Source: Amoebophrya sp. A120
Lineage: Eukaryota; Protista; Dinoflagellata
Direction of reading: 5' to 3'
Length of the DNA stretch: 64,000 nucleotides
Assembly (NCBI GenBank): GCA_905178155.1
Contig: CAJINV010000004.1
Span: 9,710,625 to 9,774,624, forward strand
The notes beneath the pieces were generated by a model. The model worked only from the letters and a program-made list of their open reading frames with translations. It was not told the DNA's origin and ran no database searches. Both the position numbers and the translations under genes were made by a program. Positions 1-63,910 of this stretch are shown here, one piece after another. How positions within the stretch are numbered: the stretch's first letter is position 1; each line of letters starts with the position of its first letter.

Positions 1-600
1 ATATTTTCCAGCTCGAAATATTTCCCAGCTCGAAATATTTTCCAGCTCGAAATATTTTCCAGCTCGAAATATTTTCCAGCGGCCATTTTGCAGCTCGCAA
101 TATTTTTGCAGCTCGCAATATTTTCAAGCCCGAAAAATTTTCAAGCTCGAAATATTTTCAAGCCCGAAATATTTTTAAGCTCGGAATATTTTCCAGCTCG
201 GAGTATTTTCAAGCTCGAAATATTTTCCAGCTCGAAACATTTCCCAGCTCGAAATATTTTCCAGCTCGAAATATTTTCCAGCTCGAGCAAATATTTTCCA
301 GCTCGAACAAATATTCCCCAGCTCGAAACATTTTCCAGCTCGAGCAAATATTTTCCAGCTCGAACAAATATTCCCCAGCTCGAAACATTTTCCAGCTCGG
401 AATATTTTCCGGCTCGAAATATTTTCCGGCTCGAAATATTTGCCGGCTCGAAATATTTTCCGGCTCGAAATCTTTTCCGGCTCGAAATATTTTCCGGCTC
501 GAAATATTTCCCGGCTCGAAATATTTTCCGGCTCGAAATATTTTCCGGCTGGAAATATTTCCCAGCTCAAAAATATTTTGCAGCGCAAAATATTTTGCAG
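1..600. repeat. 17-bp tandem satellite (consensus CCAGCTCGAAATATTTT), runs off the window edge
   Basis: GCTCGAAAT recurs at 11, 28, 45, 62 and onward with 17-bp period and variants; the ORFs called here are repeat translations. Confidence 0.95.
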
Positions 601-39580: not shown

Positions 39581-41284
39581 GGAGATTTCATCTTCACTCC
39601 TGCAGACTGTGCTTGTTCCACGGTACGATTTTTTGGAGAAAGCATCATGGTCTTGGTCATGCGTCGAGTGGCTCATTGATTTTGTCGCATTGAAACAAAA
39701 GCGCAGCTGCTCCTAATTTTTTTTTTCCAGCATAATTAAGTATATAGGGAAGAGGTAGAGGAGTAGCCTGCGTTTTTGTTGCTCGACAGATTATATGGGC
39801 ACATCAGCATACACATACTTGTCGGGAATTCGCTTTGACTAACTTATACGAATCATACACACAAATCACTAACTTGCCATGCAACTACAAAATTAATCTC
39901 TTTTCTCACAACAGCAAAGTCTTTTGAAACATGATAAGCTTGTCGAGGCTGTCGAATAGAGGAATGTCGGGCTGCTCAGGTGGCAGGCATTGAATTCGAA
40001 GCTGGCAGCATCTCCCAAGGCAACGAGTAGCACAAAAAATAAACTCGCTGCTTTATCTGCAGCGGATGTAGACAGTGAAGAGAGAGGCCTTTGCTTCAGA
40101 ATCAGAAATTGTTCAAACTCCTACACTTTCATTTTCGAATATCAATATTGATCCCTGCGGACATTGATTGTGATTGTTGCCCAAGAAGAAGCCAAAAGTT
40201 CATAAGGCCACGCATTCCCTCACTTCGGTTTTTTGATTTTTTTCTGAACTATTTTCTTGCATGGATAAGTATCAAATGAGCGCATGACCACGACGCCAAT
40301 TTCTATCGTGCGCTCCTTAGTAGCATCAACGACCACGAGCAAGGACTTCAAGAAATCGGTTCGAAGCAAATCTTCTAGAAGAACGGTTCAAAGATGTTTT
40401 TGAGCAACTTCCACTTGTTTCGGTATTGAAACTAGTACGAGAAACGCAGACAAATTGTTTCGGTCACGAGGCGATCAAATTTGAAATTTTGAGGACACGA
40501 CCGGGTCTAGAGAATTTCTGATTGAGATTCTTGCAAGCAGTAATTATGGTTATAGTTCAGACACAGGATGAATTTAGATTCACATGGACGCCGCAAGACA
40601 ACGCGGTCGCGCACCTAGTACAAGTAGCACTTGACTTGCCACTTGAACAGCACTGCGAAATTTGACAGGACCACTGCCCCAAAATGAGCATAACAGAATT
40701 ACTATAGGCTCTACATATATTGAACTAAGTTCCGATAGAGAAGAGAACATTTTTTCCATGATCACACCTTATTTTGCGAGGCCCTTTTTCTCGCTTTTCA
40801 AAGGTTTTTCTTTTCCTGAAGAGTACTGCTTTGACTTTCTGGTGCGACCTTTTTTTCTCTACCGTCTACTTACGAGGTCTTATGTCGTATTTTTGTTGAT
40901 CTAAGCACTTTCTTGGCTTTCGCATTAGTCCACGACGCAGCGCGCAGATAAATAGGAACCTGAACAAATTTAATCCTGTCCTTTATGACCTCATAATATC
41001 AGTGCGAAGTAGTTTTCACTCTGTGCTTATTTGTTTCGATTTTTTTGTCACACAAGTGAACAACATTTTACCACATCACGCATAGCACATCAACATCGCA
41101 CATGAACTACATGATAAAAAAGATGGCGAGTAACCTTTTCGGACAGGGCCGGAGAGCCAAGCACGACAAGTTGTTCCTGATTTTTATGCAGCGGCTCTAC
41201 TTGTGCCTCGAACTCGATCGAAACAACAAGTTCTGCGTCGAGAATTGTTAGTCTTCCGCATCGTCCGCGACGGCACCTGCAGCC

Positions 41285-44200
41285 ATGGAAAATGTATCTG
41301 CGGACATGGTGAAAAATTACCAGGGCCATTTAGGTCGTGATGACGAGGACCACAACGGCGAACAACCCGATGCGAAAAAACAGCGGAGAGATCATGATCT
41401 TCGGCACGTGTATTCCTCTTCCAATTCCTCCCTTCTTGGTGGGGCGTCCTCGTCCGATTTGGCGGGTAGTGGAAAAGACGCGTACGAGCAGGACTTTCTG
41501 CTAACGCACCGAGGAAAAGAGAAGGTGTATGGCAGACGAGGCAAGGAAGATGGTTCTACCTCGGCTACGGCTACGGGTCGTGTCGCACGAGGAGCCCCCC
41601 GACGGGATGAAGAGGAATCTCGTACAGGAAGAAGTGGAAGCAGCAGGTACTGGGCAGCTAGTACTCAAGACCACAAACGTGCTGCACGAGAAGGAAAAAT
41701 ATTACCAGCTGGTGCAGGAGACGAGTCTCACGCCGCACGAGAGGTCGTGGACCACGATGCGAAATCCGCCGGCGCCACTTCGAGAGTTTCCTCCAAAATC
41801 TCTTCCCGCCAGAAAATGTTTGCGCAACAAATGTTGAATATGCGGGGGCAGCCTGGACAAGTACCCGCTCCGTCTTCCCGCAGCTGGTACGACAATCTCT
41901 CCTTGTACCGCTACGAGGCCCTGTTTGAGCGGGTAGCGCGGGACCTGGAAAACAACAGAATTACTGGCATTGTGCCGGACGACGCGGTCATTCAAGACGA
42001 TCTGCACACGCAGCCGGGAAGCGAGAACAGCTCGGTGAAAGAGGAAGACGGCCTGGATGTTGGCAGCGTGTCCGCTACGGAGGAGGAAACTGTTGAAACT
42101 GGTGCTAGAAATGATGTCCTCGTAGTACGGGATCGTCAGCTTCCTCCTGGCGAGGAACAAATGAGAAACAGTACAACTAACGAGCCCACGTCGAGAGCGG
42201 TGAGTCAGAGCCGGAACATTGAAACCCCTGGAGGAGGTCCCCCGCACAATCAACATGACGGCTCAGAAATGTCCCCGGAGGAACTGGCCCGGTTGAGGAG
42301 ACTGAAGAAGCGAACGCAAAACCGGAGCAAAGAGTTCCGTTTGGACAAAAACACGAGATCCGGAAGTTCCGACTTATTCAACAGGTCCAACAGCATCAAA
42401 TTGCAAGGTCTCATGCGGAACAAAAGCAGGAGCACAACCAACAGCGATTATAATTTCTTGACAAACCAACTTGCTGTCGCGACAGGTGGAGGTGGAGCAC
42501 AATATCGAGAACCAGCGAGTGAAGATTTCCCCGACTTGCTTTCCAGGTCGGGAACGGATTTGGATGTGAGGCAGACGGACATGTTGACGCGGAGCGGCTC
42601 GAATCTGAGTCTGACTGCGGGAGGAGAACATCATGGGCTGCTCCCGCAGAGTGGTTCTTCCGATCGCGCTGGTAAAGTGCCAAAGAAAAGCAATAAGCAT
42701 AAGCTGATGAGGTTTCCCACGAATTTTCAAGCGCCGGTGCTGGGGTTGGCGATTTTGCGGTATGACGACGAAGACCAAGATGAACAGGAGGAGGATCATG
42801 TCGGCGAGCATGAGCAAACAGACAGGAACGATGTTGCAGCTCCTTCCCGGCAAGAAATGACACAGAGTGCTGGCAGTGGCACACCCCCCTCCGATGCCTT
42901 GTTTTCCTCCGGAACTTCCGCAGATGTTGCGGCCCAGCAAGATGTGGACGTGCACACACTACAACAAAGCATAACTGCGACGAATTGTGACGAGAATGCC
43001 ACCAACCTGGTTCCCACGGTGAACTCCACCGAAAGTACCAGTTTCAACTACTCCAAATCGTCACAAAAACCGCTCAAAATGGGTGTTGCAACTCCCGAAG
43101 ACGACAAGGGTTGTGGTCTCAAACCGCAGTCTGTGTATGACATTGTGGACCTCTCCTCGACTCCTGGGTTTCTGATCGACGAGTATCAACATGGCAGTAT
43201 GGAAGGAATAATGCCCAGCGACGTAGAGGAAAAGAAGAAGCACATGAAGAACTACAGTTCGGATATAGATAAAAAACCGACCTCTAGTATCTCTTCAACA
43301 TCTCCTGATGATAGCGCCGACCTTTGTTCGCGAGGTAGAGTTAGCACCGAACTCTCAGAGGGACCTGACGAAAGCGCCAGAAGTAGTGTCTCCAAGGAAG
43401 TAGGGCAAGAGATGATTATAAGCGACACGACAAACACGCCTGCTGGGACAACTGGTAGCACGACCACAACTACATCCGGCCTTACAGACCCCGCGGCTGT
43501 TGCGGCACCACATCTAAAATCCACTCTTCTCTCCACGAATCTCGCGCCCCAAAACGCGTTCGACTTCAGCCTCCGGTCTGTTTCCGCTCCGGCAAACAAG
43601 CGAAGGCTGTCGACGCCTCGCAGGTCCCGACCGGACAGCGAGCTGACGCGCACCTACAGCCGAAAATCGGTATTCCGCATGCACAGCCTGATGCGGCAAG
43701 ACAGTTTGGCCAGCGGCAGGAGTACCAGTAGGCCCGCGTCCACTACAGGAGCATTAGCCGAGGTTGACCCGATAAAATCGCTCACTTTCGGAGGCTTGGG
43801 ACTGAATTTCGCAAGTGCTGAACAAGCTGCAGACTCCAGCACTGGGACCATAGGAGCGTTTCTCGCGAACTCCGCCCCTGGTAGCGGGACCATGAGCGGT
43901 AGTTACACGACCGGAGTTGGAGATCATGATGCCTACAACACACAAGAACACGCATTCCCAGACCAGCCGAACACCTGGCATGGCGGCAGTGCGCGATTCG
44001 AGCGGCAGCTGGTGGATCTTAACGCGCTTTTCGAGCACCGAGAAGAGGACGAGGAGGGAAAAATCGTGAGTAGATCGGGTTCACAACTCGAAGGCACGAC
44101 GACGCAGCTGGATGATAAAAGTAGTGCAGGAACAAGCACTACTTCGGGAAAGAACATCCTCGCTAAGCCTGTATCAGAAGAAGCTGTACAACTATCACCA

Positions 44201-47200
44201 GTTGTATTGCCTAATAACGCAAACGTCAACGGGTCTTCTCCCGTCGTCTCCGACAAACGGGACGTTTCGACTGCGACGAATAGCACCGCGGAAGTGATGG
44301 GCGTGGTCTCCACTTCTCCGTCCGAGACGAGTAGCGCAACCGCAAGCCCAATTTTTCACAAGAAAATTGTCGCGGTTCTTTCATCCCAGCAGCAGACGCC
44401 AGCTGCAGTAGATGATGTCGGTAAGAGCACAACATCAGATAATGTTCTTGCCAACTCGCAGCAGCTTCTTTCCCCTGTCATCGAAAAAACAACCTCACTC
44501 GGAACAACTAGCACAACCGTTGTTCAACAAAATTCTCCGGCGTCCTATGGTGGTGGTAGTGGTCCTCAGCTCCTTCTTGACGGGGGTTTAATCGGAGGAC
44601 ATCAAGATGAACTGGCGCAAACTATCGTCCCGCAAGGCGTCGTGGCCGCGCAAGCAAACGCCACGCCCGCGGCGGACTACCCGCTTGTGCTCGAAAAGGT
44701 CCAGGGGCTAACGCCGGTGGTGGTGTATGAATGCAGCGTGGTAGAAGAAACAAACCGGAAGCCGTTTCCCGACGAGGTTTTGAAGGCCTTCGCGACCAGC
44801 TTGCAAAAGCTGAACAACGACGACAATGTGGGCTTCATTTCCGGCGAAGACGGGTTGATGTCCAGCCTGCAGGTCTTAGCCCACCAAGTGACGAAAAAGC
44901 CCTGCTGCATGTCGCCGCTCCTCCTATTGCCCACGTACGCGCGCTGCTACCGCCCGGGTTCGAAGTTTCTGATCTGTACCGTGGGCTTGGAAAACGACTC
45001 CGTGTATCTGAACATTGCAGATTTGGCGGAGCGCGCCGGGTACACGGAGCAAAGGTTCCGCGATTTGTTTCTCATCGAACGGTTCGAAGACATCTTGCTG
45101 CAGTCCCAGGATGATTTGGAAAAGCAGGGGGAGATGATACTGGATCGGATCTGCTCCAAGTTCCGGGGCATCTTTCGAAGATCGACAGCAAACGGCAACT
45201 CAATCCTCACCCAAGAACAACTCCCGGAAGCACAAGCAGAAGGTCCTGGTGCAACAGGCGCCGCCATCCCGTTATTTCCAAGCGTTAGATCTACTTCTGG
45301 GAGCAGAACGAGCATTGGTGCGGCGGATGGTGCAGGTGGAGTAGTACAACCAGGTGAAATGGAAAGCGAGAATGCTGCTAAAACAAAAGCAGGCATCGTG
45401 CGAGCAAGTGAAAGACCCGGGGGCGAGGGGGAAAATAATAATGAACAAGAACATCAACCGCGGAAAACAACAAGATCGTTGTATCACAGTGAAAAATGCC
45501 CCCCACACCTGAAATTGCAACAATTTGTGATGCGAAGTTTCCAAATGAAAGCTTTTTGTCATGCATGAAAGGAGTAAGAATCTTTCTGATGCAGATTCTA
45601 GTCGTGTTTCGCATCGCTTGCATGACAAGCACCGCTCTTGCTGGGATCTTTTGCAATACAAATTTTTGCTATTCACGATCGGAAATCTGTGATGCTGATA
45701 CACGCAAGAGGGCGAGTGTTTCACTTGGAAAGATTTGCAATACAAATGCTTTCAAGTTCGGGGGTGGGGGCATTTTTCATTGTAATACGTTGCCCCGTTG
45801 CTCTGGAATTTTTGTCGAGTGTGCGGAAATGATATTGTGAGGAAAAATCCCCCCATCCCATATTGAAAGCCTATGTTTCTGAAAATTTGTCTTGCTGATT
45901 TGAGGTCACAAATCGCATTCGTCTTGCAAGAAGACAAGGTGAGAAGCTTCCGCCTCATTATGGAAGCGGTTTGTCATGCTGTTGGACCTAAAGGGGAGCC
46001 GTTTGCCATGCTGAACAACTAGACCAATACGCCCCTACCGAGCCGGGGGATCTGGCCGCAATGCCTCTCTGCATCACAAAGCTGAATTGTGTACACAAAT
46101 CCAGCATCAGAAATTCCGTTTTGATATGGGGAGGGGGTATTTTTCCTTACGATAAATGACGGTGCACAGTGACCTGTTGAGGGAGGAGCTAGGGGTCCCT
46201 GTGTGGGACATGGTGTCTCTTTCCCACGCTTTGATGCTCGGGTATTTGGAAAACCCTCTTTTTGGCAGACTGGGCTGGCAGGTCCACGGGAGTGGTGGCA
46301 CTGCGACTGCTCCAGGCCTTGTTCTGACGCAGGATATGCAGCCACAACAACTCAATGACCTGAACGCAGCTGGTGGTGAAGGTTCAGAGGAGTTGCTGTC
46401 CGAAATAAATGCTGCTGACAACGACAAACCGGTGCACAACGAACCCTCGGTGGACGAAAATTATTCCATTGTTCCAGACACCACAACGATGACCACTGGC
46501 GCTGTTGATGTCGACCATTTGGTGAGGGTGAACAGACGGAAGAGCATCACTAGACATTTCTCCGTGGCAGGCAGCAGTTTTGTTCACCAAAAGGACGACC
46601 AAGTGGAACAAAATCATCTACTTCATCTTCAAAATGTTGAACTAGACTTACGACCCTCTGTTGCCCAGCTCGCTTCCTGGGCTGGGAACAAACTAGTCGA
46701 CGATGAAGACAGAGCGTGCTACGCTGCGCAGCGGGACCAAGTGAAGGCCCTGATTGATTACATCTTGGCGGAGAATAGGAAGCTTGTGTTTGATGCTGCG
46801 ACCTCTAGGCCACGGACGGCGAGTGGCAACGTGATCAATCCGGTAGTTAAGCTTTTGCCGGAAAGCGCCACGTTTTTGAGCACAACGAAAAAACAGCTGA
46901 CCAATTATGCAGTAGATGCAGGAGTGCAGCTGTCCTCCGACGTTGTTGATCATACGTCGCAAGAAGTAGGAGGTGCGGCCAACACTTCTTCTGCTACTCC
47001 TGCACCTCCAACATCTTCAGCCACTACAACTTCCTCCTTTCAGCACCCGGCGCTCGGGTGTCTCCGCCTAGACTCTCTGTACCGCCCCGCCGCCGGGGAT
47101 GTGGCCGACCCGCGGTCGCACGAGTTCGCTTTGGTGAATCGGGTGGTTCCTGGATTAACTTTCGAAATGTGCCGGTCGGGCACCTTAACGGCGGAGGTGC

Positions 47201-50200
47201 GGCGGAACTTTGCCCGGGCGGTGAAGTATCTCGACAAGCACCCGCAGGTGAAGGTGATAACCGGGGATTGCGGGTTCATGATGTTCTTCCAGGAACTGGC
47301 GCAGGCGTTTACGCGCAAACCGGTGTGCATGAGTAGCTTGATGCTGATCACGGGGCTGAACCAATTCATCCACCCGGACAAGCAGATCGCGATTTTGACG
47401 GCAAACTCCACGGACTTGGAGGATTTGATCCCCGTCGTGTCGCGCGTTTGCGGGGTCGGATTGCAGGCGTTCGAGACGGATTTGGTGAAGGAAAACCGAG
47501 ATTTGGCGAGCTTCATCTCGGCCGCAAGCTCCCAGGCGAGTTTTATCCCGAGGGGGTTGATGGGGCCAGGATGGGGTGCTGCACCAGGAGGGCCTCCAAG
47601 AACGCCGAGTGCGATCAGCGTAAGTTCGGCGACTGCAGGTGGTGGAGCTCCAGGAGTTTCAGCCAGTGCAGCGGTGGTTACGACCTCCCAGCAGCCAACG
47701 CAGGATACGGTTTTTGAGGGAAAAATTCTGGAAATCGGAGCAGCTTCAGACGGGAAAGACAAGCTGAGCAGACCACATGCGCAACATCAAGACTGGCAGG
47801 AAAAGCATGACGTCGAGAACCAGATGTACCAGCAGAGCATGCCAGACCGTGATCTTCCAGCACGTGAAGGAGTATTGAACAATCCGCCGTCGCAGCTGGC
47901 GCAATCCTGTAAGACCCCACCTCTTATTGAAGAAAATATTACCCTCGGGACGACACCAATTTCAACTCCGGGTAGAGGTGGTGCCAGGAAAAAAGTAGAA
48001 AAAGGAGCTCCTAAAAGTACTGCCTCCGCAAGCAACCCGCTTTCCCGCACCCTTTCCAACTCTTCTGACCGATCTACCTCGAGGATAAACAACAATAACG
48101 CCAGCAAAAGTGATAGTGGTTCTACTACTGCCAAAAATAATTATGCGGCGGATCCAAGTTTCCTCGACGCGGTTGCGACGAAATTGAAATCAGAACTGGG
48201 ACAGCAACTCGTGGATGAATTTTACAACAGTTTAGGGACGAATGGGAGCGACGATAAAATCTTCACACCGGACGAGCAGGGCGACCCGGTGCAGCAGCTT
48301 TCGAATGCGATATTACCTGATCAGAAGCAAAACCTGTCAATATCTTCCGCATCAAATTCAAATTCTCAGTCGGCCGGCGGCGGCACCAGCGATGAAGTAA
48401 GTTTGAATTCCTCTTCGAAGATGAAGAAGAAGGCGCTGCGTCGCATGGACTCACCGATGCCGGAAAGTTTCGTAAAGCAGACGTCTTCGTCTACTACTTT
48501 CGGGTCTTTCCGCTCTAACATTTCCGGCGTGGTGGTCCTAAACACAGCAGGTGGACAAGATCAAGAACAGCGCCCGACGTCAAACTCTTCAGGAGATTCG
48601 CTTCGTGTGCCGGCCTCGAGCCCGAGGGACGACGTTGATGAGGAGGACGATCATGAGGGTGTACTAGCACTTTCTCTACTTCGTTCTCAAAATTATTCCA
48701 CGACCAAACTGGGTAGATCTTCAAAGCAGGAGGACATCCAGACTACACTTTCCTTTTTAGCCGGAGGAACGATCTCAGGAACTGCGACCTCCTCAAGCAG
48801 TCTCTCAGGTGCTGGGACGAGCACCAGCAATACGGAACAAGAATATATCGCCGCGAAGACCAAATCCGAAAGTTCCTCGTCGACTGCTCCTCCTAAAAAT
48901 AATGTAGTAGTGGTTCATGCGATGCAAGATCGAGAAATTCTCGAGGAGCCATGCCCGGATGCAGAAGTGAATCTTTCGTTGGCGAAGCAGGAGAAAGAAA
49001 TGATCAACAGTAGCAGTAGTTCTACAAACAATAAATCCGCCGACCCGTTTGTCCGCAACATGCTGACGGAGGAGGAGGAGGAAACGATGCTGATCAAAGG
49101 AATCCTCTCCCGCTCCACCTCTCTCCAGGCCGCCGATGTCTTCGGCGAAAAGCCAACCACCATGCGAACGCTGAAGCAGCTCGCGGCGGATAGGACCACT
49201 AGTCCCTACGACAGTCCGGGGGCTGGGCAGCTGGTTCGCCAAGGCGGCGCTGGGGGAAGTAGCAGTGCAAATATGTTTACAACTTCTCCCGGCGGAGAAA
49301 CCCCTCCGTCCGAAGAGGACGATATCGTGCCGATAGAGATTGGGAACAGGAACACGAGAAGTACAGAGAGTGCTAGTAACAAAAGTAGGTCCACAGGAAA
49401 TCGTCCCACTACACGAGCGTCGTCCACGACCCCCTCCCACAAAGGACCCAGTCCTGGTCACAGTGACTCGTCTGTCGGGCGGGCTACCGGGACCGTACAT
49501 GACGGTGATTTCAGTTGTCCCGCTGACGCAACGACGAACTCAGAAGAGGACCACGCAGCTGCTTTAGTACGGACGAGTACAACAGTGGACGAGAATAAAG
49601 GGGGTGTTGACATCAAGGAGAAGTACAGAAAAAGGAAGAACCTATCCTCGACCGCCGGTTATGCAAAAAATAAAAATCCCGAGATATACATCAACACGAG
49701 CGACGGCCAAGGCTTCAAGTACATGCCGATGCCACCTGCCGATAATAATTTCAGCGGCACATCAGGCTCCTGCGATACTTTCTCCGACACGAAGACGCCG
49801 GACTACTTGCCGAGCCCGCCTTTTGAGCCGATGCGCGTGCCAAGACTGACCAAGGAAGAACGGGAGTTCTCGTTAGATCCCTTCACCATGTCTGACCTTA
49901 GCTTCTCGACCACTTCCAATTCCATTTCCGCCTACACGACAAATTCCCTTTTCTCGCAAACGAACCTCACGAATTACAATTCCCAAATCATCAACCCCAA
50001 TGTAGCTGTGAGTCCACGGGGCGGGGGCGGGCCGCCGTACGAAGCCAGCACGACCAGCAGCGGCCGCCCCAACACCACTGCCTCGGGGGCCGGCTCCACA
50101 GCCGGGACTACGAGGGGTGTGGTGGCGCGGCGGCCAGACTTCCCCGAGGAGCGGATCGAGGAAGATGTGGACATCGCTTACTCGGGTCTGAAGAACAACG

Positions 50201-53200
50201 TGCAGAGATACGATAAGTTTAATGACATTGCGCGGGTGGACACAAAAAAACTACGAGCAGTAGAGAAGCTCCGAAGTGTAGTCGCCGGTCCTGCTTCACC
50301 ATGTGGGAGTTGTGACAACAATATGGATGATCATGTTGCAGTTGCCGGCTCAGGCTTATCTTCTGCTGCAGCTGGCTCCTCTTCGACGTCGAATATATCG
50401 CCGCGGGGCGGGGTTGACATGTTTCAGCCTGGGAAATTGTTTGAAAAGGTGAAGCTGCAGGAAAACGCCACTCTCAAATTCGAGAACAAGGGGCTCGTGG
50501 TCGGGGACGTTCAACATCTTGACAACGAAATAGATTGCAAGGACAACAACAGCACTTCTACCCAAGAAGACCCTCCGCACGACACCGTTATTACGCCGCA
50601 GCGGAAGCAACTTCAGCTCATGATGCCGGGGTTCGATACCGCAGAGAGCTCTTTTGTTTCATCTAGTACCGGCGCAGGGGGAGATACAACTGATACAACT
50701 GACTTGTTGTTCCCTAACTACGTAACCGGGAAGAATATGAAACACACTACATGCAGCACCGCGACTGAGGCCGACGTGACGCCCAGCATTGTCGCCGGGC
50801 GGGTGAGCGTTTCCGAGATCGACGAAATCGACCGAAGAAGAGCGCACCAGAAGGGCTTTAGCAGCGAACACCCGCTCGTGATTCTGGATCGCGAGGAGGC
50901 CGCGCGCAGAAACGCGGCGTTGCCGACCGGCGGCATGATTGACCCGACCCGTGACTTGCCGTTTGCATTCAGTCCGCACGGGAGAACGAGGGCTGATCAA
51001 GTCGACCAGCAGCAGCAGCAGCCGGGTGCTGGCACTGTTCCTTCTTCGCTGGAAAGCAGCTCCTCATTATTTCGGGGCAACAATGTGGAGAATCCGTTCG
51101 CGAATTTGATGATCAAAACCACTTTTGGCGGTGGGAACAAGACGAAGACTCCTGACGCAGTTGATGTCCGAGCTGCTTCTACTACAGTTGTTCTCTCGCA
51201 TCAAACCACGAGTAAAAATAGTACTGCGATAGAAGCGCTTGCTGGAGCTACCCCTGCTTCTGAGGACACGACCAGCACTAATCAAGTAGACAAGCGGCTC
51301 GAAAGTTACAATAGCACAGGCACAGCAAGCTCCGTTATAGGCGCTCCGGTAGGTGGAGTTGTTGGTTCTGCTGCGTTCGTCCCTCGTGTACTTTCTTCCC
51401 CGCTGGCCGGCGTTACTCCAGTGCATGAACAAGTAGAAGATGCAGAGTCGCATGACGAGGCGCAACAACAGCACGTAGAGTCGCCGCTACACCAGACGAG
51501 AACCGACCTAGGGGTCATAAGATCAGTTGGAAATTATAACACCAAGAACAGCCCAGAACAAGAAGTTCAGAACATCAACAACAACCCCAGAACCTCCAAC
51601 CGTCGGTCAACCTTTTCGTCCTCCGACGACATCCCCTGCCTACCCCGGACCAGCGACACGACGGGTAGCAAGGTGAATTCCCCCAGTTGGGCTATCACGA
51701 CCGCGGAGATCCTCGGCGTGGACGTGGCGACAGACATTGGGCTGCAATCAGATTACACCGATGACGGGTTTTCGCCGGGGGAAAAAGCGGCGTTGCAGGT
51801 TTTGGTGCTGGAGAAGGGCGGCTTAGCGGCAATCACCGAAGATCAGGCGCTACCCGACGATTTGCCCGTGCACATGACTTATCAACTGCAAAAATGTCTG
51901 GGTCTGGAAGATTGCAACTTGTCATGCTAAATCTGAAGCATGCAAAAATCTGTGTTGCATGATTACCAAAAGTCGTCCAGTTTTAACCAAGTCGGGAGGG
52001 AGTTTCTCATGCAGGATAGGCATGAGAGAGATCGCATAGAATCTGTCATGCTAGGTCCTGCATTCCAGACCTCATGGGTCATGGAAAAGCTGCGTGACAA
52101 ATCGCGCATTCTTCCAGACCCAGACTCTTTTACATTTGATATGACAACCAGCCCGGCGATTCCACCGTTTAACCCGAAGATGAACAATATGACTGCCCTG
52201 CAGCCTGGATCATTATCTTGGACAGGTCGTGGTGCAGCCAACAAGGATTTCGATGGTGCTGCTGGCAATATCGAAACTACCTTCAACATTCCGAATGCCT
52301 TGATAGAACGAGAGCATCAACGGGAAGTAGAGCACCACATGCTAATCGAAGAGCAAGCTTTTATAGAAGACCCGCTCTTTCATCTTACAAATACAAGTCC
52401 GCCGCCGGGTGATCTTCAGATGCTCCACATGATGTCCTCACCATCCTCCCCACCGTCGCTCGCTCTATTGTCCAAAACTCCGAGCGAGCAGGCACGGGAC
52501 GCACACTTACGGGAATTTTTAGCGCGGAACCCGCACGAGCACGAACTGGCCAGACGTCAGCGTACGGACTCGCAGCAGGACCAAACAATTGCCGAAACAG
52601 GTCGGATCGCCGACTTGCCTGGGGGTGGAGCAGGAGCAGGGAACAATAAGGATGAGGATGAATTTTCTGGTCACCACGAAATAAACAGTGGCACGCAACA
52701 ACTTCCGGGGCAGCAGACGAGTGGGAACATGCAACTTCTGGACCCCAGAGTTGCCCTGGGAACGACAAGTCGAGGCGCTCCTATTTCATTTCCGGGTCAA
52801 GATGACGCACCCAAGGATCATGCGCAGGAGCAGGTGGACCGCAAGAACAGCAGCAACATGCTGTCTAGAACTTCTTCTGGGCCGCACAATGTTCATGATC
52901 AGCAGCAGCATCACAGCACGTTCATTTCACATCCCTCCACCACCATCCACTACCCTTCCCTGGCGTCGACGGAACGCGGGGGAGGTAATAATTTGTTGCA
53001 AAAGACGAAGTCGAACTTGTCCGTTGACAGCTACTCCGACGCAGAGACGATTGTGCCCGGACAAGAAGGTCCAAGCTCCGGGGGAATATTAAACAACAAC
53101 GATTATTCCAACGTGAATTACCACCTGCAAAGTGTCGACGAACTGGTGGAGCGCGCGACTGGGCAGGCACTGTCTCCGCATAGCAGCTCTCGTCCTGGGA

Positions 53201-55690
53201 GCCGGGAAGCCTCGCAGATCAGTGCTGCAACAGCTGGGGGAAATAAAGGGAAAGACCTACCATTAGCTGGCGCAAATAAAGGACAACAGATGACATCACG
53301 AGATGCAGCCAAGACCAAGAGCAAAGACGATTTACTTCTACTCGGCAGTACTTCTGAGGGTGCCGTAGTAGAGCAGTTGAAGCACGACGAGAGCCAGCAC
53401 GCGATATTCAAGGAAGAGCAAGACGATGTCGACAATGTCCTCGCCACGGGCACGGTTAATTACTGGGGCACGCTACTGGGTCCGAGTTCGGAGATGGTCC
53501 GGCAGGCACGGTTTGTAGGACAGAACAAGCCGCTGCAGGATTTTTTGTTGGAAATTGAGCAAGAGAAAGAACAGATGTTGGTGAAATCCAAATCACATGA
53601 CGAGAATTTTGCTGGTGTAGCTGATCTTCAGGGCGAGCATTTACACGCTACGCCGAGCAGAAGTCCTAGTGCCAGCCCGGCAGTTCCTGTAGTTCCACCC
53701 TTGAATCAAAGCCAAATGAAACTGCTGCCCCGGACCGTTTCCACGCAGAGCAACACTACGGCTGCTGGTGGTGATATGGATGTGTCAGAGTTGAAATCGA
53801 CAGAGTTGAAATAACTTGTAATGCATGAAATCGATACCAGTCGGAAACCCAATTTCCAAGCGGCGCATGACAAATTTGAGTAGAGCCGAAATCCAGTTTG
53901 TCATGCTCTTCGGGTGAGACAGATGCCTTTTGTCATGCTACTTTAGCAGCTCTATTTCTACCCCGAAACAGGCTTACAATCTGCCTCCTGTGCCTACTCT
54001 GCAAGACAGGCATTTTCTTTGGTGCATTTTATGCATGACAAACTATTTCAACTTTGACGATTTCAAACCTGACGCTTCCATAGGTGACCTGCACCAAACT
54101 GCCCTCCAACGCCAAGTGTCTGGCCTGGAACTGATGCTTGGAACTTCTATCAAATGTAAAAATGTCTGGGTCTGGAAGAGTGCGCGATTTCTCATGCAGC
54201 TTTTCCATGACCCACGAGGTCTGGAATGCAGGACCTAGCATGACAGATTCTGCGCGATCTCTCTCATGCCTATCCTGCATGAGAAACTCCCTTCCGACTT
54301 GGTCAAAACTCGACGATTTTTGGTAATCATGCAACACAGATTTTTGCATGCTTCAGATCTAGCATGACAAGTTGCATTCTTCCAGACCCAGACATTTTTA
54401 CATTTGATAACTTCTACACAAGGACAAGATCACCGACTACAGCACAACGTCTATGGTTCCACCTCATCACTATCCGCTCTGTACCAGCATATCCCGGTTG
54501 CGGCGCCATCCAGTGCAGGAGCAGCTGGCGCAGCTCATCTTGGCGATCACAGTTACAACCCCTATGATTTTTCCCTGTCTCCGGGTGCTTTCGGACCACC
54601 AGCCGCGACGGTTATTCCAGCGAACCTGAACATCGGTGACCCCTACCCGACGGACTTCACCAGCATGCCACTGTCCCCGACGGCCATTCTGGCTTACCAA
54701 AGACAGAAATTTATTGGAGGTTCCTCCCAACACTCCGTTTCCGGAGAAAGTTTGAATAGCTTCGGCCGGTCCACGCAGGTGCGGGGCGGGGTGACCACAG
54801 GAGCAGCTTCTTCCGTCGGAGGGGGAACTGCTCCTGGCCCACCTTTTGCTGGTTTGGTCCGCGCAGGGACAGCAGGAGCATCGAAAGGAGCTCTCTCGGA
54901 TGCAGGCATGACAAACTACACCGGTTACACTGGAGGTTTGCAGTACAACCCGGCCGCAGCACGCGAATCCCAAGTCACTACTCCGAGATACACCTATGCG
55001 GGCTTGTCGGACCAGATCAACAGCGTGGGTCCGCATTTTGGCACGGAGCTTTCGCACCTGCAAAGTAGAGCCTTTTCCACGGAGGTCCATTTGGGAGGAG
55101 GTGGGCAACATCTTGCAGGTACTACAGGAGCAGCTCCTGGTGGCGGTGCTGCTAAAACGAGCACGACATCGCAAGTTGCTGCAGTAGAGCCGGTCGCCCG
55201 GCATATTGACCGGCAGCGGTTTGTGGTGATGGGCATCGAGGACTTGCCCAACTTCGACGGCATTTCCAAGGGCTACCCGCTGCAATTTCACAACTGCGAG
55301 GAGTTGCTGATCCAGAAGATCCAGCGGCTGATGGACGCGCATCCGGACATCGACTGCTTTCTGGTCGAGTGCACGCAGTTGCCAATGTTTTCGGATTCCC
55401 TGCGGGCGTTGTTCCAAAAACCGGTGTACGACATCACTTCCGCGGCACACATGATGATGCTGGGCTTCCAAACCACGCCGAAATGTGACGACGAGCTGTA
55501 CAAAATTGAGGACGCGCAGCCGTACTGCTTCGGGATGGAACTGGGCGCGAAAGACCGGAGGAAGTGCCTGGAATTGCAACGGTTTCGCGATTTGTTCGAC
55601 GAGGCCGGGATTCCGCTCGATAAAGATGCTGAAAGTGGTGATGAAGCGGAGAACGAAACAAGGAGGGACGACAGTCGAGCAGGCTTCTAG
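41285..55690 (+). CDS. Giant (~4,306 aa) protein with two split Alma-family (DMSP lyase / Asp-Glu racemase superfamily)-like domains in low-complexity sequence; 5 introners
   Basis: ORFs 41285, 46156, 51940 and 54404 join after excision; motifs LGCLRLD..AGDVADP..RVVPGLTFEMCRSG..ITGDCGFMMFFQ..KPVCMSSL..IAILTAN and FLVECTQLPMFSDSLRALFQKPVYD; degenerate first copy ISGEDGLM..KPCCMSPL..FVECAEM..GVPVWD. Confidence 0.8.
45482..45787. mobile_element. Introner, family A-like (TIR TATCACAGTGAAAAATGCCCC)
   Basis: DR CGTTG. Confidence 0.9.
45833..46154. mobile_element. Introner family A (reverse orientation)
   Basis: DR AATGA. Confidence 0.9.
51880..52141. mobile_element. Introner family D
   Basis: DR TGACT/TGACA. 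Confidence 0.9.
53775..54082. mobile_element. Introner family F (reverse orientation)
   Basis: DR GGTGA. Confidence 0.9.
54148..54409. mobile_element. Introner family D, near reverse complement of 51880-52141
   Basis: DR ACTTC. Confidence 0.92.
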
Positions 55691-57316: not shown

Positions 57317-60300
57317 ATGGAGCATCATCTCCGGGAAGTGGCCATGCGTTCCAACACGCGGTCGTTTTCTATGGCGTTCTCAAACGTTACATTCTCAACT
57401 GTTACACGATTTGTCATGCAAAATGAGCATCAAGCTCCGCACGGTGAAGCTAGTTCGCATGACAAATTTTGGAATAGCTAAACACCATGGATATCTGTGC
57501 CAAATTTGTAATGCAAGAGTTGCAAGCTCCGGCCTTTCCCTTTTGCCATTCCAGCATCACAAATTCATGTAACAGTTGAGAATGTAACAGTTGAGGACGC
57601 CATATTTTCCGCCGTCGCGGGCAAGCGGGCGTGGAGCGATCCGCAGACACACTGGGCCGCCGCGACCAAGCGCCCGACCACACCTTCGTACCGGACCGCG
57701 CGCATGGGCGGCTACAACACGAATCACGACGGGACCGCCCGACCGGGCACCAGTCACGGCACCGGCACCGCGCACCAGAACGCGACGCATCACGGTGGGT
57801 ACACGACCACCACGTCTGGCGGGCATTCCAACCCGACCGGGTTGCCCAGTGGACGAGCCAGTTCTTCCGGCGCGAATCACGCGGGGGCTGGTTCCCATGC
57901 GGGCGCTGCTGGTGCTGCCGCTGCGCACCAGACAAACGATAAAATCGCCAACCACCGGGTTCTGCATTTGCTCTCCAAGCGTCCGCACTCGGCCTTTAAC
58001 ACGAACCGGAAGCGCGCGGTGCGACCCGTGGCGGTAGGCGGGGAGACCACGGCGCACGGAGGTCATCATCACGGCGCGCAGCACCACGAGCGGAAAGTGC
58101 GGGAGCGACCGAAAAGTGGCGACAATTACCACCACCGGACTTTTCACCACGCGATGAACGCGACGGTGCCGGCCGATGCGACCTATGCCATGAACCAAGG
58201 AGCTGGTGCTACTGGCGTCACTGGCACTGTATCAACTGCAAATATGTCTGGGTCCGGGAAGTTTGGACTTGTAATGCTGGTCTTGCATCCCTATGGAATC
58301 TGTATTGCATGATCAACAAAAGTTGCAGCCTCTTTGTCTTTTGTCATACAAAAACGCAGCTTCTCGTGCGGGCTGTGCATGACAAAGCGTTATGGGAATA
58401 AGTTGTCATGCTTGGCTGCAGTCGGCAGTGTTTCCATCATCCATATTTTCGCATCACAAGTTTCCAGACGAGACGTCCAGGGATATTTGCATTTGATACA
58501 CCGCCGCGTTGAATAACAACACGGACAACGTGATTTCCACGGCTATGGACTACCGCCGGTACATGGACGAGAGACGCCGGATCCAGGCGGAAAAACGGCA
58601 CCGGTTGAACAACCTGCACCAAACGGAGCACTTCCACGCGGCTGGGGCGGGTGCTGCGGTGGCCAAGATGAACCACATGAACCATACTGCAGGGGGGGAA
58701 ACTATGGAAGCGTCAGGTTTGAAATCGACAAAGTTGAAATGATTTGTCATGCATAAGATGGATACCAGTTGGAAACCCAATTTCCAAGCGGCGCATGACA
58801 AATTTTCCGAGCACTGGAATTCAATTTGTCATGCTGTTTGGGCACAGACGACCGCTTTTGTCATGCTCCTTTAGCAGCTCTACTTCAAACCCTAAACAGG
58901 CTGACACTCGGCCTCACTTGCCATCCCGGCAAGACAGACACTCCACGCCTTGCATTTTATGCATGGCAAATCATTTCCGTGAGCGCAATGAGTTGGTACG
59001 TTGGCGAACGTTAAACGTACTCTGTTGGCAATAAGTTGGTTTGTTGGCGAAAAGTAAGGTTTGTTGGCGAACAATAAACGCATCCGTTGGCGCAATGTAA
59101 GGATCGTTGGCGAACGTTAAACGTACTCAGTGGGCGAAAAGTTGGACTTGTTGGCGAAAAGTATGGTTTGTTGGCGCAAAGTAAGGATCGTTGGCGAACG
59201 CTAAACGCATGTTGGCGAAGTGAGGACTGTGTGCGAAAGTAAGGAAAAGTTGGCGTAAGTGGGATCATGTGCCCGAGGATGATGGTGATGGCTTCGGTCC
59301 GCCTGACTCCACGACCTGGTGGCCGAACCATCTGCGGTGAGGTGCCCTTGCAGGTTGTGTAGTGGTTTCGGTCGGTTTAGCATGGCAAATCATTTCAACT
59401 TTGACGATATCAAACCTGACGCTTCCATAGAAACCTCGTTCGGGGGCGCGACCGCCTCTTCTCGGCCGGGGACCGCCGGGGCGAGCGGCAATGCAACCGC
59501 GAGTTCCGCGTCGAAGACGGCGGCTTTCCAGCAGCAGAGAGCGAATTCCAGTTCCGCGACGGAGGAGGACGTCGACGGGGTGTCTACGAGATCCGGCACC
59601 GTACACATGGGCAAGACCGCGTCGACATCGCTAGCGTCCTTGACGAACCTCCGGGACCAGATTTCGAACTCGAATCAGAACGCGCTCTCCACCTCTTTAA
59701 AGCACCAAAATGTCGTTCTTGGAGGTACTGCTACTGCTGACGCGGCAAGCCGGCCCAATACCGCCGGCGGGGCAGGAGGTTCTACACCGACAGGGTCGGG
59801 GGCTACGGGCACTACCGCGTTGCCATTTACCACAAATTTGGCGAGCTCTTCTTCGTCTTCCATGAACCAAGCGGGCTCCAGGACTGGTACAGGCTTGGTG
59901 GATAACGCCGCGATGGACCACCAAAACAAATCTTCCGGTAATGGTGCCCAGCAAACCACCACCGCGCAACAAGCCACCGACAGCACGGGATCCGTCCCGC
60001 CTCTCGGCTCCGGCGGACAGGGAGCGGGCGCACAGTCGAAGCAGACGCGGCAGTACGGTGAGCCGATCACGCTGCGGGCCCCGACGGGCACGTCCGGGGG
60101 TGGGCCAGCACAGTTGGACACCGGAATGGCGGCGCGGCCCACGACTGCACCCTCCGGTGCGACGAAACCCGGGAAACAGGCGGACGCGCAGGCCGCAGAG
60201 CAGCAGCAAAACCGGCAGCACGAATCCTGGCACCAGGACGACGAGCAGGGGACTTTTGGGGGCGCGCTCGCGAACATTAACACCTCTACGACGATTCACG

Positions 60301-63300
60301 ATTACATCATCGGCAAGCAGATCGGGCAGGGCGCGTACGCGACGGTCAGGCTGGCGGTGCACAAGCCGAGCGGCAAGAAGGTCGCCATCAAAATCTACGA
60401 GAAGAGTCGGCTGTTGGATCCCCAGCGACGGAAGTCGGTCAGACGCGAGATTCGAGTCATGGACCGGTTGTCGCACCCCAACATCGTGAAATTTTACGAG
60501 GTCGCGGATACCAGCAGACAGGTAGCTTAAGGTTTGTATATGCAAACCCAACAAGGACAAGCAGCTTTGCTCCTGTTGTAGTTGTTGAAAAATTTCAAGT
60601 TTTCATCTGGATGAAAAGAAAATTCAATCGTGTCACATTTTGATTTGTTTCTACTCACTCCATAAAAATTAATGCTATATATAATCAGGTTTTCCTGGTC
60701 CTCGAGTACATTAATGGTGGCTCCCTCCACTACCTGCTCAAAAAGCGCACCAACCGCCGGTTGTCGGAAATCGACGCTCGCATGATTTTCTCCCAAGTCT
60801 GCGCCGGAATCCGGTACTGCCACGAGCTATGACAGCCTCAGAATGGAAATCCTCAAAGTGGAAATGATTTGTAATGCAAAAAAGCGACTCCACTTGAAGT
60901 GGCGTTTGTAGTCGGCGCATGACAAATTTTCCGGTCACTTAGAGCATCTCTGTCATGCAGGTTGAGGCAAAGGGGTGCCCTCCTGTCGTGCTAAGCAGCA
61001 CTCCAATTCTTCACCCCTAGCAGGACAATAGTCGGCCCCCATTGCGTCCTCTGCAATACAGTCTTTTTTGCGTCGCATTTCATGCATCACAAATCATTTC
61101 CACTTTGAGGATTTCCATTCTGAGGCTTTCATACGAGCGGTTGGTGGTGCACAGAGACATCAAGCTCGAGAACGTCTTGGTACAGTACCCCGATAAAGCC
61201 GTCGCGCACAATATTGTGAGGAAAAATCCCCCCTCCCCATATCGAAAAGGTACGTCTCGAAAAATTTGTAATGCTGATTTGTGACCACAAATCGTCTCTG
61301 TCTTGCAAGAACGCAACCCCATAGGCTGCGCCGCATACTGCAGGCGGTTTGTGATGCTGTGGGCCCTACAGATTAGATGTTTCCCATGCTCAGCGCCTAG
61401 CCCAAAACCTCTCTACTCAAGCTTAGTATAGGCCTGCAGTCCTCTCCAGCAAGACAAAGCTGAATTGCGTATCCAAATCCAGCAACAGAAATTTCCGTTT
61501 CAATTAGACCAGAAAATCGGAAGAAGTACATGTTTTTTTGCGCATCCCCTTGCAACGGGGGTCGCGGGCTGAATGAGGTTGGGGGGTGCGAAGGCGCGAC
61601 CGCGTTCCGGGTTGTTTTATCCCGGAAAAATTAGCCCCCGGCATTGCGGCTGCGCGGCCGGGGCCGGGGCGGGTCGGCTTCCTTGGCGTAGATAGGAAGG
61701 CGACGACACACAGCCAACACCTCGCCACCCGCCCCCACGCTGGGCCCACGTCGGGGACACACAACAGACGCGGCGCGCATCCCGGGGCCCCAAAGCGAAG
61801 CCCTTCCGGGCCCGGAAAAGCTCCTGCTTTGGCTGCGGCCTGGCGCGCCTTTTCCCTTCGTTCCGGGGCCCCGGCCGGCGGGTGAACTGCAGGCCCCCCA
61901 AGAGGCACGCGCGCCTCCCCCTTTCGGAGGGGGGGGGAAAAGGGGGCCCGAATTGGCCCAATTCGCCTCCCTTTTTGAGGGGGGGGGTAAAATGTGCCCG
62001 ATTCTGGCTCATTTTGCCCCCCCCCTGTAGTAGCGGGGGAAGGCCATTTTTTGCCCCCCCCCTAAAAAAGGCGGCAGAATTGGGCCAATTCGGCCCCCTT
62101 TTTACCCCCCCTCCAGAAGGGGGGGCCCGCGCGCCTTCCGGGCCCCCCTTCCCGGCCCCCCAATTGTGGGGCGGCTGTTGTTGCGGCCGAAGCAGGCCCC
62201 ACCTTAGGGGCGCGCGCCCTACTTACTGCTTCGAGGGCCGGCCCCTCCGGTACGGCGGGCAGGCCCATGCGCTTCCGGCAAAAAACATGGCGGCGGCGCA
62301 CCGGCCCGACCGGGACGGGCCCGCGGGGAGGCCGCTTGGTGGGGCGGCTTTTCTCGCTCTTGGCGGGCTTCGAGGTCGGGAGGCCGCCCCGGCTCTCTTT
62401 GGCAAGCCACACCCCCCGAGCCGCTGCATGGCGCAGCGAGGTCCTCGGGCCGGGTGTACTGTCGGGGCACCCCGCCGCCCCCGAAGCGAAACGAAAGCGG
62501 CCCGCCATGCAAGCGGGTGCGCGAAAAAGTATGTACTTCTTCCGATTTTCTGGTCTAATTCAATATGGGGAGGGGGGATTTTTCAGTTTGATACACAACC
62601 AAAACCTGGCCTTGACCAGCTCGGGGCATTTGGACCCGCGGCAGTTAGTTGTCAAGCTGATTGACTTCGGATTCGCGAGCTTGGTTGTGCCGGGGAAAAA
62701 GCTGCGCGTCTTCTGCGGAACGCCCAGCTACATGGCCCCGGAGATCATTCAGAGAAGGGAATATGGCGGGTATGGAATTCATTTTGAACTGTTGTTTTTG
62801 TTATCGCTTCTGACTCGGGATGAAAGGCTGATGATACATCATGATGATAGTAGCTACAGGCACAAAAAACTGCGTGTTGATGGTGCAAGTAGAATGATCG
62901 AAAAGCAAAATATAATCTCTCCGGTGATAAACTACAGTTACTGCGTGGACATCTGGGCTTTGGGTATTCTGCTGTACGCCATGCTTTTCGGGCAGTTTCC
63001 ATTTCGTGGCCAATCGGACAAGGAACTCTACAAGAAGATCTTGAAGGTACAGAATTTTTTTGTGATGTTGCACGAAAGTAGGCATGCCGCGTTTTCATTT
63101 TCTCACTTTCCGCGAGGAGATGCATTGACAAGTTGGAAACTTCTCGAATCAACCAACAATAAATCAGGGCGCCTTCGTGTTCCCAGAGGGCCTCGAGCAG
63201 GAAGTTAGCAAGAACGCCCGTGCCCTGCTCGCCAAGGTTTTCGTCAACATGGAGGTCCGCCCCACCATTCAGAACGTGTCCATGGATCCCTTCTTCTCGG

Positions 63301-63910
63301 AGCACCTGAGTAGTCGTCCGGGCACCGCGAATCACCACCGCCCAAGCTCTTCGCACGCAACGCTGAGCGGACAACGAGACCTGAATTTTCAGCACCATCA
63401 CGAAGCAACAACGAGACCCGCCACCTCATCAGGGACCTCCTCTTCCGCGGGCGCAGGGGGAAACGTAAACATCAACATCCACAAAACCGCTTCGGGCTAC
63501 CCGTTGCGCGAAGAAGCCATTGCAAAGTTGGAAAAACTCGGGTACGCACGCGAAGACATCTTGCGGCAAATGAAGGACGAAAACTATCAAATGCAAATAT
63601 GTCTGGGTCTGCGTCTGGAAGAGTCATGCTGCGTTTGCATGACACAGAAGGTCTGGCATGGAAGCTCTAGCATCACAGGTTGCGAGAAGCTGCTTCCGCA
63701 ATGCCGAATCCGCATGACAAATGCCCCATTTTGGTGACAGAAAGTGGGCAGCTTTTGCTGCCTATGCATGAGAGACTTTTGCGTGTTGTGAAATGCGCAT
63801 CACAAGTTTGCAATCTTCCAGACCCAGACATTTTTGCAATCCATAAAAACTCACACCTCTCAAAACTCTACACCCGGTTTGTCAAAGCACTGAACGCGTG
63901 GGGGAAGTAG
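57317..63910 (+). CDS. Ser/Thr protein kinase, CAMK group (AMPK/MARK-like, ~975 aa) with a long disordered N-terminus and UBA-like tail; 6 introners and GT-AG introns 60522-60688, 62770-62937, 63047-63167
   Basis: [35 protein letters not shown] and DIWALG are all in one spliced frame; C-terminal [15 protein letters not shown]. Confidence 0.92.
57370..57604. mobile_element. Introner family B (reverse orientation)
   Basis: DR TTTTC. Confidence 0.9.
58230..58498. mobile_element. Introner family D (diverged)
   Basis: DR CACTG/CACCG. Confidence 0.85.
58703..59429. mobile_element. Introner family F carrying a 402-bp internal insert (58978-59379)
   Basis: DR GAAAC; insert flanked by a 17-bp duplication GCATGGCAAATCATTTC. 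Confidence 0.9.
58999..59260. repeat. Minisatellite with GTTGGCGAA core (~20-bp spacing) inside the captured insert
   Basis: About a dozen GTTGGCG(A/C)A-like cores; CGTTGGCGAACGTTAAACGTACTC occurs twice. Confidence 0.85.
60828..61133. mobile_element. Introner family I
   Basis: DR CGAGC; lies just before HRDIK. Confidence 0.92.
61212..62593. mobile_element. Introner family A (reverse orientation) containing a nested TIR element
   Basis: DR CACAA; sits between kinase HRD and DFG motifs. Confidence 0.9.
61504..62558. mobile_element. Nested non-autonomous DNA transposon (MITE-like, 1,055 bp, GC-rich)
   Basis: Perfect 28-bp TIR TTAGACCAGAAAATCGGAAGAAGTACAT (imperfect to ~50 bp); 5-bp target duplication TTCAA at 61499-61503 and 62559-62563. 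Confidence 0.92.
63585..63845. mobile_element. Introner family D
   Basis: DR AAAAC. Confidence 0.9.

What the first reader, a model, noticed from the sequence alone, without database searches (positions are those of the whole stretch)
61504..62558. A 1,055-bp TTA-ended DNA transposon nested inside an introner within the kinase catalytic domain
Seen: perfect 28-bp TIRs, 5-bp target duplication TTCAA, and a GC-rich interior with internal inverted sub-repeats (GAATTGGCCCAATTC at ~61950, GAATTGGGCCAATTC at ~62077). It sits about 30 nt from the host element's 3' end, separating the terminal TIR from its subterminal motif, yet the kinase frame is intact. Inference: the same 5-bp duplication length links introners to a recently active DNA-transposon system; a TTA-ended relative may survive by landing inside an already removable element. 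It also tests whether the internal motif is needed for splicing.
Basis: partly seen in the sequence, partly recalled or inferred. Interest (0 to 1): 0.75.

Follow-up and report, generated by a model that had tools for sequence, protein, structure and literature searches.

The report
Transposon nested inside a spliced introner
A 1-kb, apparently non-coding jumping element, present in several copies, sits inside one of the transposon-derived introns of a kinase gene in what is likely an Amoebophrya parasite, and it is likely harmless because the whole intron appears still to be cut out of the RNA, which makes it a mostly ordinary nested insertion.

Summary
61504-62558 has perfect 28-bp inverted ends and a TTCAA duplication, inside a 1,382-nt TAT..ATA introner (61212-62593) in a kinase gene. 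Contigs of public runs show a real multi-copy family with unrelated flanks. They fix the terminus as TTAG and give an exact 1,060-nt empty site, so the duplication is 5 bp. A nanopore-artefact reading is rejected. One contig of a likely-RNA run joins the exons across the whole 1,387 nt in frame, but that sample is not shown to carry the insertion.

The proposed link to the introners is weak. The ends are no more alike than shuffles, the introner motif is absent, and another copy (L001) has no introner upstream. Introners fill about 20% of the window and 3 of 50 carry secondary inserts, so nesting needs no special strategy.

Verdict: a new, unclassified non-autonomous TIR family riding in an intron. 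Two leads remain: its TTA-purine-purine start matches the published introner ends of the other strain, A25, and relatives with different interiors share its ends and could lead to a transposase.

The parts
61504..62558 (.). Nested non-autonomous TIR element, 1,055 nt, 68% GC, TTAG..CTAA ends
   Evidence: no Pfam match in its five longest frames; no Rfam match near a gathering score
61504..61531 (+). Left TIR, 28 nt perfect; imperfect pairing continues to about 61565
62531..62558 (-). Right TIR, 28 nt perfect; imperfect pairing from about 62497
   Evidence: five other contigs leave the reference right behind 62558
61499..61503 (+). Left copy of the 5-bp target duplication TTCAA
   Evidence: 1,060-nt skip in 4 contigs of each DNA-like run
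62559..62563 (+). Right copy of the target duplication TTCAA
61908..62133 (.).
61212..62593 (.). Host introner, TAT..ATA ends, 322 nt without the insert; 63-81% identical to four sisters in the window
61207..61211 (+). Host target duplication CACAA, left copy
62594..62598 (+). Host target duplication CACAA, right copy
62564..62593 (-). Host right TIR, left intact by the insertion; predicted still to pair with the host's left TIR
60828..61133 (.). Neighbouring introner (306 nt, duplication CGAGC) in the same gene, skipped as 311 nt in run X4
60201..63584 (+). Protein kinase gene, part analysed: exons about 60201-60521, 60689-60827, 61139-61211, 62599-62769, 62938-63046, 63168-63584; three GT-AG introns and two introners
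   Evidence: Open frame after joining; Pkinase hits in three exons; joints in X4

Best explanation
It is one copy of a multi-copy repeat with 28-bp inverted ends, likely a non-autonomous cut-and-paste DNA transposon moved by an unidentified transposase, that duplicated 5 bp on inserting into an older introner and likely persists because the whole composite is spliced out as one intron. Shown: ends, duplication, empty site, several copies, no known coding domain, and an exact exon-exon joint in one contig of a likely-RNA run. Inferred: mobilisation in trans with a 5-nt staggered cut; one-step removal at the host's own ends, whose stem is predicted to survive; survival by ordinary purifying selection rather than targeting. 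The organism is inferred to be Amoebophrya A120 or a close relative from the published TAT-N7-AAA introner motif.
For: DNA-like runs X1 and X2 cover every bin of the element at depth 129-394 and 215-1011, against 23 and 41 on the unique flank (the tool warns this is no copy number). In X2, 11 of 106 laid contigs reach past the ends, and 5 go loose right behind 62558 with agreement 0.51, where unrelated flanks give 0.50 +/- 0.02. X4 has loose ends before 61504 and 61503, and L001 has G before the TIR, so the terminus is TTAG. Four contigs per DNA-like run skip exactly 1,060 nt. X4 joins 61206 to 62594 (1,387 nt, depth 99.7) and also skips the neighbouring introner and a GT-AG intron; none of these three joints is in X1 or X2. 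The predicted host end-to-end stem has 24 pairs with the insert and 25 without. 75 of 100 introner ends fit TAT-N7-AAA (motif).
Against: No transposase was found: none in the element, none in 82 other long frames of the window, and Farhat et al. report none in A120. The spliced joint rests on one contig with 25 letters on its short side, X4 is only guessed to be RNA, and no listed X4 piece shows the insertion at this locus. No listed contig spans either junction of this locus. The 5-bp length is measured at this locus only, because flanks of other copies could not be paired. At several positions no laid contig carries the window's letter (e.g. 61824, 62349, 62412, 62414), so this copy is either divergent or imperfectly polished. 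One hint of target preference is unexplained (see rival).
Confidence: 0.82

Rival explanations
1. The TTA element belongs to the lineage that made the TTA-ended introners of strain A25. It is a long, not yet intron-forming relative, and its relatives with other interiors include the transposase donor.
For: A25 introner ends start with TTA plus two purines (PMC7789003 section 11); this TIR starts TTAGA. Relatives share the end but not the interior: an X4 contig matches 36 nt exactly then diverges, and an X2 contig of 2,016 nt matches about 131 nt, with about 1.6 kb beyond that piece, of which only a short part was laid elsewhere on the element.
Against: A five-letter match is weak (1 in 256 for random letters, noticed after the fact). 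A25 non-canonical introns average 120 nt. Automated TSD calls for A25 families scatter from 2 to 11. No A25 sequence was available to compare, and the relatives' letters could not be read.
Confidence: 0.15
2. The element and the TAT introners are moved by one transposase system, as the shared 5-bp duplication suggests.
For: Both have 5-bp duplications (42 of 50 introners perfect), T-starting ends and an A-run at positions 10-15.
Against: 99 of 100 introner ends are TAT and all 100 start TA; this starts TT. Its best profile score is -10.3 against a 5th percentile of +5.0 for introner ends; best identity 15 of 28, shuffled mean 14.2; 0 introner motifs. Duplications of about 5 bp occur in several unrelated groups (Ginger2, the IS2 subgroup, LTR elements).
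Confidence: 0.1
3. The family targets introner ends, using removable introns as a safe haven.
For: The consensus of five other right flanks matches this locus's flank in register at 10 of 12 positions; simulated chance 5.6e-4, chosen after seeing it. All three secondary inserts in the window's introners lie near one end.
Against: The match stops after position 15 although the host TIR continues; overall agreement is at chance level. The three single flanks I could read (L001 and two in X4) show no such sequence. The other two inserts are unrelated elements.
Confidence: 0.12
4. The inner element is itself spliced first (a twintron), restoring the 322-nt host before it is removed.
For: It has its own long terminal stem (DNA fold) and a 5-nt duplication like the introners; removing it restores the host exactly. 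Dataset S2 lists an unclassified A120 introner family (fam74, 49 copies) spanning about 1,060 positions with an automated TSD of 5, which may or may not be this family.
Against: It lacks the TAT end and the internal motif shared by the introners here. The host's own stem is predicted to form without prior removal.
Confidence: 0.1
5. The GC-rich interior is an assembly artefact, a long palindrome garbled by nanopore base-calling.
For: 50 homopolymer runs of 4 or more per kb against a window maximum of 30; the dyad is centred on the element; the best runs hold 0.77 of the sampled words, about the non-element share.
Against: Contigs of two runs cover the whole interior; L001 matches 222 of 246 nt; the two inner arms align no better than shuffles (z about 0.2).
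Confidence: 0.02

Closest known systems
Amoebophrya A120 introner elements (Farhat et al. 2021, PMC7789003)
   Same: The host: TAT-N7-AAA ends, 5-bp direct repeat, non-canonical splice joint, predicted terminal hairpin.
   Different: The nested element has TTA ends, is 1,055 nt and 68% GC, lacks the internal motif, and is not shown to act as an intron. The word 'nested' does not occur in that paper's main text, and its intron analyses stopped at 1,000 bp, below this 1,387-nt intron.
Amoebophrya A25 introner elements (same paper)
   Same: Ends start with TTA and two purines.
   Different: A25 non-canonical introns average 120 nt and are introns themselves; sequence relationship untested.
A120 introner family 38 (Gozashti et al. 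2025, PMC12130899)
   Same: About 810-nt TIR element with a 5-bp TSD in the same likely organism.
   Different: TA/TA ends, ORFs with LTR-element homology, acts as an intron; the element here has TT/AA ends and no known domain.
Non-autonomous TIR transposons / MITEs nested in introns (general knowledge)
   Same: TIRs, TSD, no transposase, several copies, tolerated inside an intron.
   Different: Longer and apparently lower in copy number than a typical MITE (recalled); ends fit no superfamily I could test.
IS3EU / GingerRoot (PMC10045372)
   Same: T-starting TIRs; its TA..TA ends resemble the host introners.
   Different: TA..TA ends and usually 6-bp TSDs; here TT..AA and 5 bp.

Membership tests
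Non-autonomous TIR DNA transposon | Terminal inverted repeats | tested here: met
   28 nt perfect
Non-autonomous TIR DNA transposon | Target-site duplication with a matching empty site | tested here: met
   TTCAA; 1,060-nt skip in 4 contigs per DNA-like run; measured at this locus only
Non-autonomous TIR DNA transposon | Dispersed copies with unrelated flanks | tested here: met
Non-autonomous TIR DNA transposon | No transposase of its own | tested here: met
   0 Pfam families in 5 of 5 long frames scanned; 5 of the 14 frames were scanned
Non-autonomous TIR DNA transposon | An autonomous partner sharing the TIR | not testable with these tools
   No genome held; TIR-sharing relatives seen but not readable
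A120-type introner (nested element) | TAT-N7-AAA terminus | tested here: not met
   TTAG start; profile score at background
A120-type introner (nested element) | Spliced out by itself | tested here: inconclusive
   No such joint listed for X4, but contigs would not keep an intermediate
A120-type introner (host) | TAT-N7-AAA ends, 5-bp direct repeat, sister copies | tested here: met
   the right end fits exactly and so does the left (TAT, 7 nt, AAA)
A120-type introner (host) | Removed from the mRNA | tested here: met
   X4 joint 61206-62594, one contig, run guessed to be RNA
A25-type introner | IR starts TTA plus two purines | tested here: met
   TTAGA
A25-type introner | Sequence relationship to A25 families | not testable with these tools
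   No sequences found in the supplements searched
IS3EU/GingerRoot | TA..TA ends, usually 6-bp TSD | tested here: not met
   Definition; TT..AA and 5 bp here
PIF/Harbinger-like | 3-bp TSD (recalled), the TIR29/TCA register | tested here: not met
   Other copies diverge right at 62558 and 61504, so the A/T is flank, not TIR
piggyBac / Kolobok / Sola-like | 4-bp TTAA or AATT duplication (recalled) | tested here: not met
   The AATT register leaves 5 extra nt against four sisters; contigs skip 1,060, not 1,055
Transib / Ginger2 | About 5-bp TSD with CAC or TG ends (ends recalled) | tested here: not met
   TSD length fits (Ginger2 4-5 bp), ends do not

The most novel reading that the evidence does not exclude
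This TTA-ended, 5-bp-TSD family is a long surviving relative of the transposon that seeded strain A25's TTA introners, living in a TAT-introner genome, and its relatives with different interiors carry the transposase that published searches missed. It would define an unclassified TTA..TAA group, and the nested copy would show that these introns are defined by their terminal 30-nt stem alone.
Probability: 0.15. Interest if true: 0.7.

Novelty: new member of a known kind. Interest (0 to 1): 0.33.

Why it matters
As it stands, modestly. A transposon inside an intron is common. But how Amoebophrya moves and splices its introners is open: Farhat et al. found no transposase in A120 and no U1 snRNA. 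This locus is a natural insertion mutant: 1,060 nt added 30 nt from the 3' end, apparently still spliced exactly, which fits recognition of the terminal stem rather than a motif at a fixed distance. The TIR is also a handle for finding an autonomous element.

Tried and rejected
Nanopore-garbled palindrome: rejected. 4-bp AATT and 3-bp TCA registers: rejected. Structured RNA gene in the interior: 5 Rfam hits, all far below gathering scores. Transposase in the window: 0 of 82 further long frames (82 of the 92 frames, leaving out five in the tandem repeat at 1-772 and five over the element, four of which were scanned, the fifth only as far as 62557); short exons split by introners could be missed. 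Other copies in the window: only the two TIRs. Viral contigs: 0 matches. Prokaryote genomes: 26 17-mer matches, none extending (at most 5 of the next 11 letters). No whole genome was held for the window or L001. No RNA holder was listed on record; raw RNA run X9 had no reads on the kinase exons; neither is evidence on expression. X4 has no cover over most of the element's interior; not used as evidence. Idea that the right TIR supplies a branch point (CTAAT about 36-40 nt from the end): not supported, since that exact motif is in 0 of 3 neighbouring canonical introns and absent from the neighbouring introner. The TIR sequences were not found in the 12 of 14 supplementary files of PMC12130899 searched. 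Earlier findings by place and by sequence: none.

Full report
Observation. The host is 61212-62593 with TAT..ATA ends and a CACAA duplication. Without the insert and one duplication it is 322 nt and aligns end to end with four sisters at 63-81% identity.

Setting. I count 50 TAT..ATA elements with 5-bp duplications (42 perfect), covering 21.5% of the window, or 20% without the nested element (50 of the 55 rows, dropping five that pair ends of different elements). 75 of their 100 ends fit TAT-N7-AAA, the motif Farhat et al. give for Amoebophrya A120 introners. I infer that organism or a close relative; I ran no protein-based test of it. The gene is a protein kinase, open only when the introners are removed with one duplication each.

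Is it real? The interior is unusually rich in homopolymers, and the best runs held 0.77 of the sampled words of a 4.5-kb stretch, so I tested for an assembly artefact. Contigs of X1 and X2 (one sample, possibly the source of the assembly) cover every bin of the element at several times the depth of the unique flank. In X2, 106 contigs were laid: 32 at 99% or more, 23 at 95-99, 26 at 90-95 and 25 below 90; 11 reach past the ends. A metagenome-collection contig, L001, carries 246 nt of the right end at 90% identity and shares introner families with the window. The family is real and of mixed age. No listed contig spans this locus's junctions, so the placement rests on the assembly and on the exact duplication.

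Ends and duplication. One copy cannot fix the register. Five X2 contigs go loose right behind 62558, X4 contigs go loose before 61504 and 61503, and L001 has G before the TIR, so the end is TTAG. Four contigs in each DNA-like run skip exactly 1,060 nt, most likely sister introners without the insert. 1,060 minus 1,055 gives 5 bp. The readable flanks differ from each other, so there is no fixed target word.

Splicing. X4, guessed to be RNA, joins 61206 to 62594, skipping 1,387 nt with 5 ambiguous letters, in one contig at depth 99.7 with 25 letters on the short side. It also skips the neighbouring introner and a GT-AG intron, joints absent from X1 and X2, and its two listed exon pieces have no differences. 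The caveat is real: cells without the insert would give the same joint, and no listed X4 piece shows the insert here. Folding predicts the host's end-to-end stem with 24 pairs with the insert and 25 without. The host's motif copies at 61265, 61348 and 61449 remain; the last is moved from about 85 to about 1,145 nt from the end. So the locus tests spacing, not need.

Link to the introners. Beyond the 5 bp there is no measurable similarity: best identity 15 of 28 against a shuffled mean of 14.2, profile score -10.3 against +5.0 for the weakest 5% of introner ends, and none of the motif whose 121 window hits fall 107 times in introners. About 5-bp duplications are shared by unrelated groups. Nesting needs no strategy: 3 of 50 introners here carry secondary inserts, and the L001 copy sits in a duplicated stretch with no introner motif in the preceding 1.7 kb. 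Against my reading, the consensus of five other flanks matches this locus's flank in register at 10 of 12 positions, simulated chance 5.6e-4 after the fact. I cannot explain this without the assembly.

Leads. Farhat et al. say A25 introner ends start with TTA and two purines, as this TIR does. Two contigs share the end but not the interior. No transposase turned up in the element or window, and none is reported for A120.

Literature seen. PMC7789003: abstract, passages, sections 5, 10, 11, 12 and 16, and supplement legends; figures S19-S25 were not visible and bear on the A25 comparison. PMC12130899: passages, and 90 of 118 Amoebophrya rows of supplementary file 8, including 57 of 58 for A120; files 13 and 14 were not searched. 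PMC10045372 and PMC11282704: passages. Other papers: search listings only. Superfamily end motifs for Transib, Ginger2, PIF, piggyBac, Kolobok and Sola are recalled.

Verdict. A real, unclassified non-autonomous TIR family; this copy is a passenger in an introner that appears still to be spliced whole. New member of a known kind, interest 0.33.

Noticed in passing
window 58703-59429: Second introner with a secondary insert: 419 extra nt including a 17-bp direct repeat (58961, 59380) and a 20-nt tandem array, about 33 nt from the introner's end; the long duplication would fit a non-LTR insertion.
   Followed up: partly
window 22816-23253: Introner about 165 nt longer than its sisters, with a decayed first right end, about 130 nt of unrelated AT-rich DNA and a second right end.
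   Followed up: partly
window 61026-61133 (another copy of the 60828 family, run X9): About 630 raw RNA reads at 90-95% identity come from another copy; 266 carry what looks like a template-switch oligo (recalled) just before 61026 and 495 run on past 61133 into one sequence, suggesting an abundant transcript that starts inside an introner.
   Followed up: no
window 61503-61538 and 62428-62558 (contigs of X4 and X2): Relatives that share the TTA end but have other interiors; one continues into G-runs like this element's central sub-repeats. A 459-nt skip (61543 to 62003) may be a deletion derivative.
   Followed up: partly
window 62559-62573: Consensus of five other copies' right flanks matches this locus's flank in register at 10 of 12 positions; unexplained hint of target preference.
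   Followed up: partly
L001 4892-5215 and 5655-6000: A 78% direct repeat of about 330 nt; the TTA copy sits at the end of the second unit, and the first unit shows the uninterrupted site.
   Followed up: partly
window 1-600: 17-nt tandem array, about 35 copies, in both orientations.
   Followed up: no
window 41252-53811: Very long open frames (1,438, 1,924 and 625 aa) with no Pfam match, interrupted by introners.
   Followed up: no
window 63585-63845: A further introner lies right at the end of the kinase's last analysed exon, so the gene probably continues beyond it.
   Followed up: no
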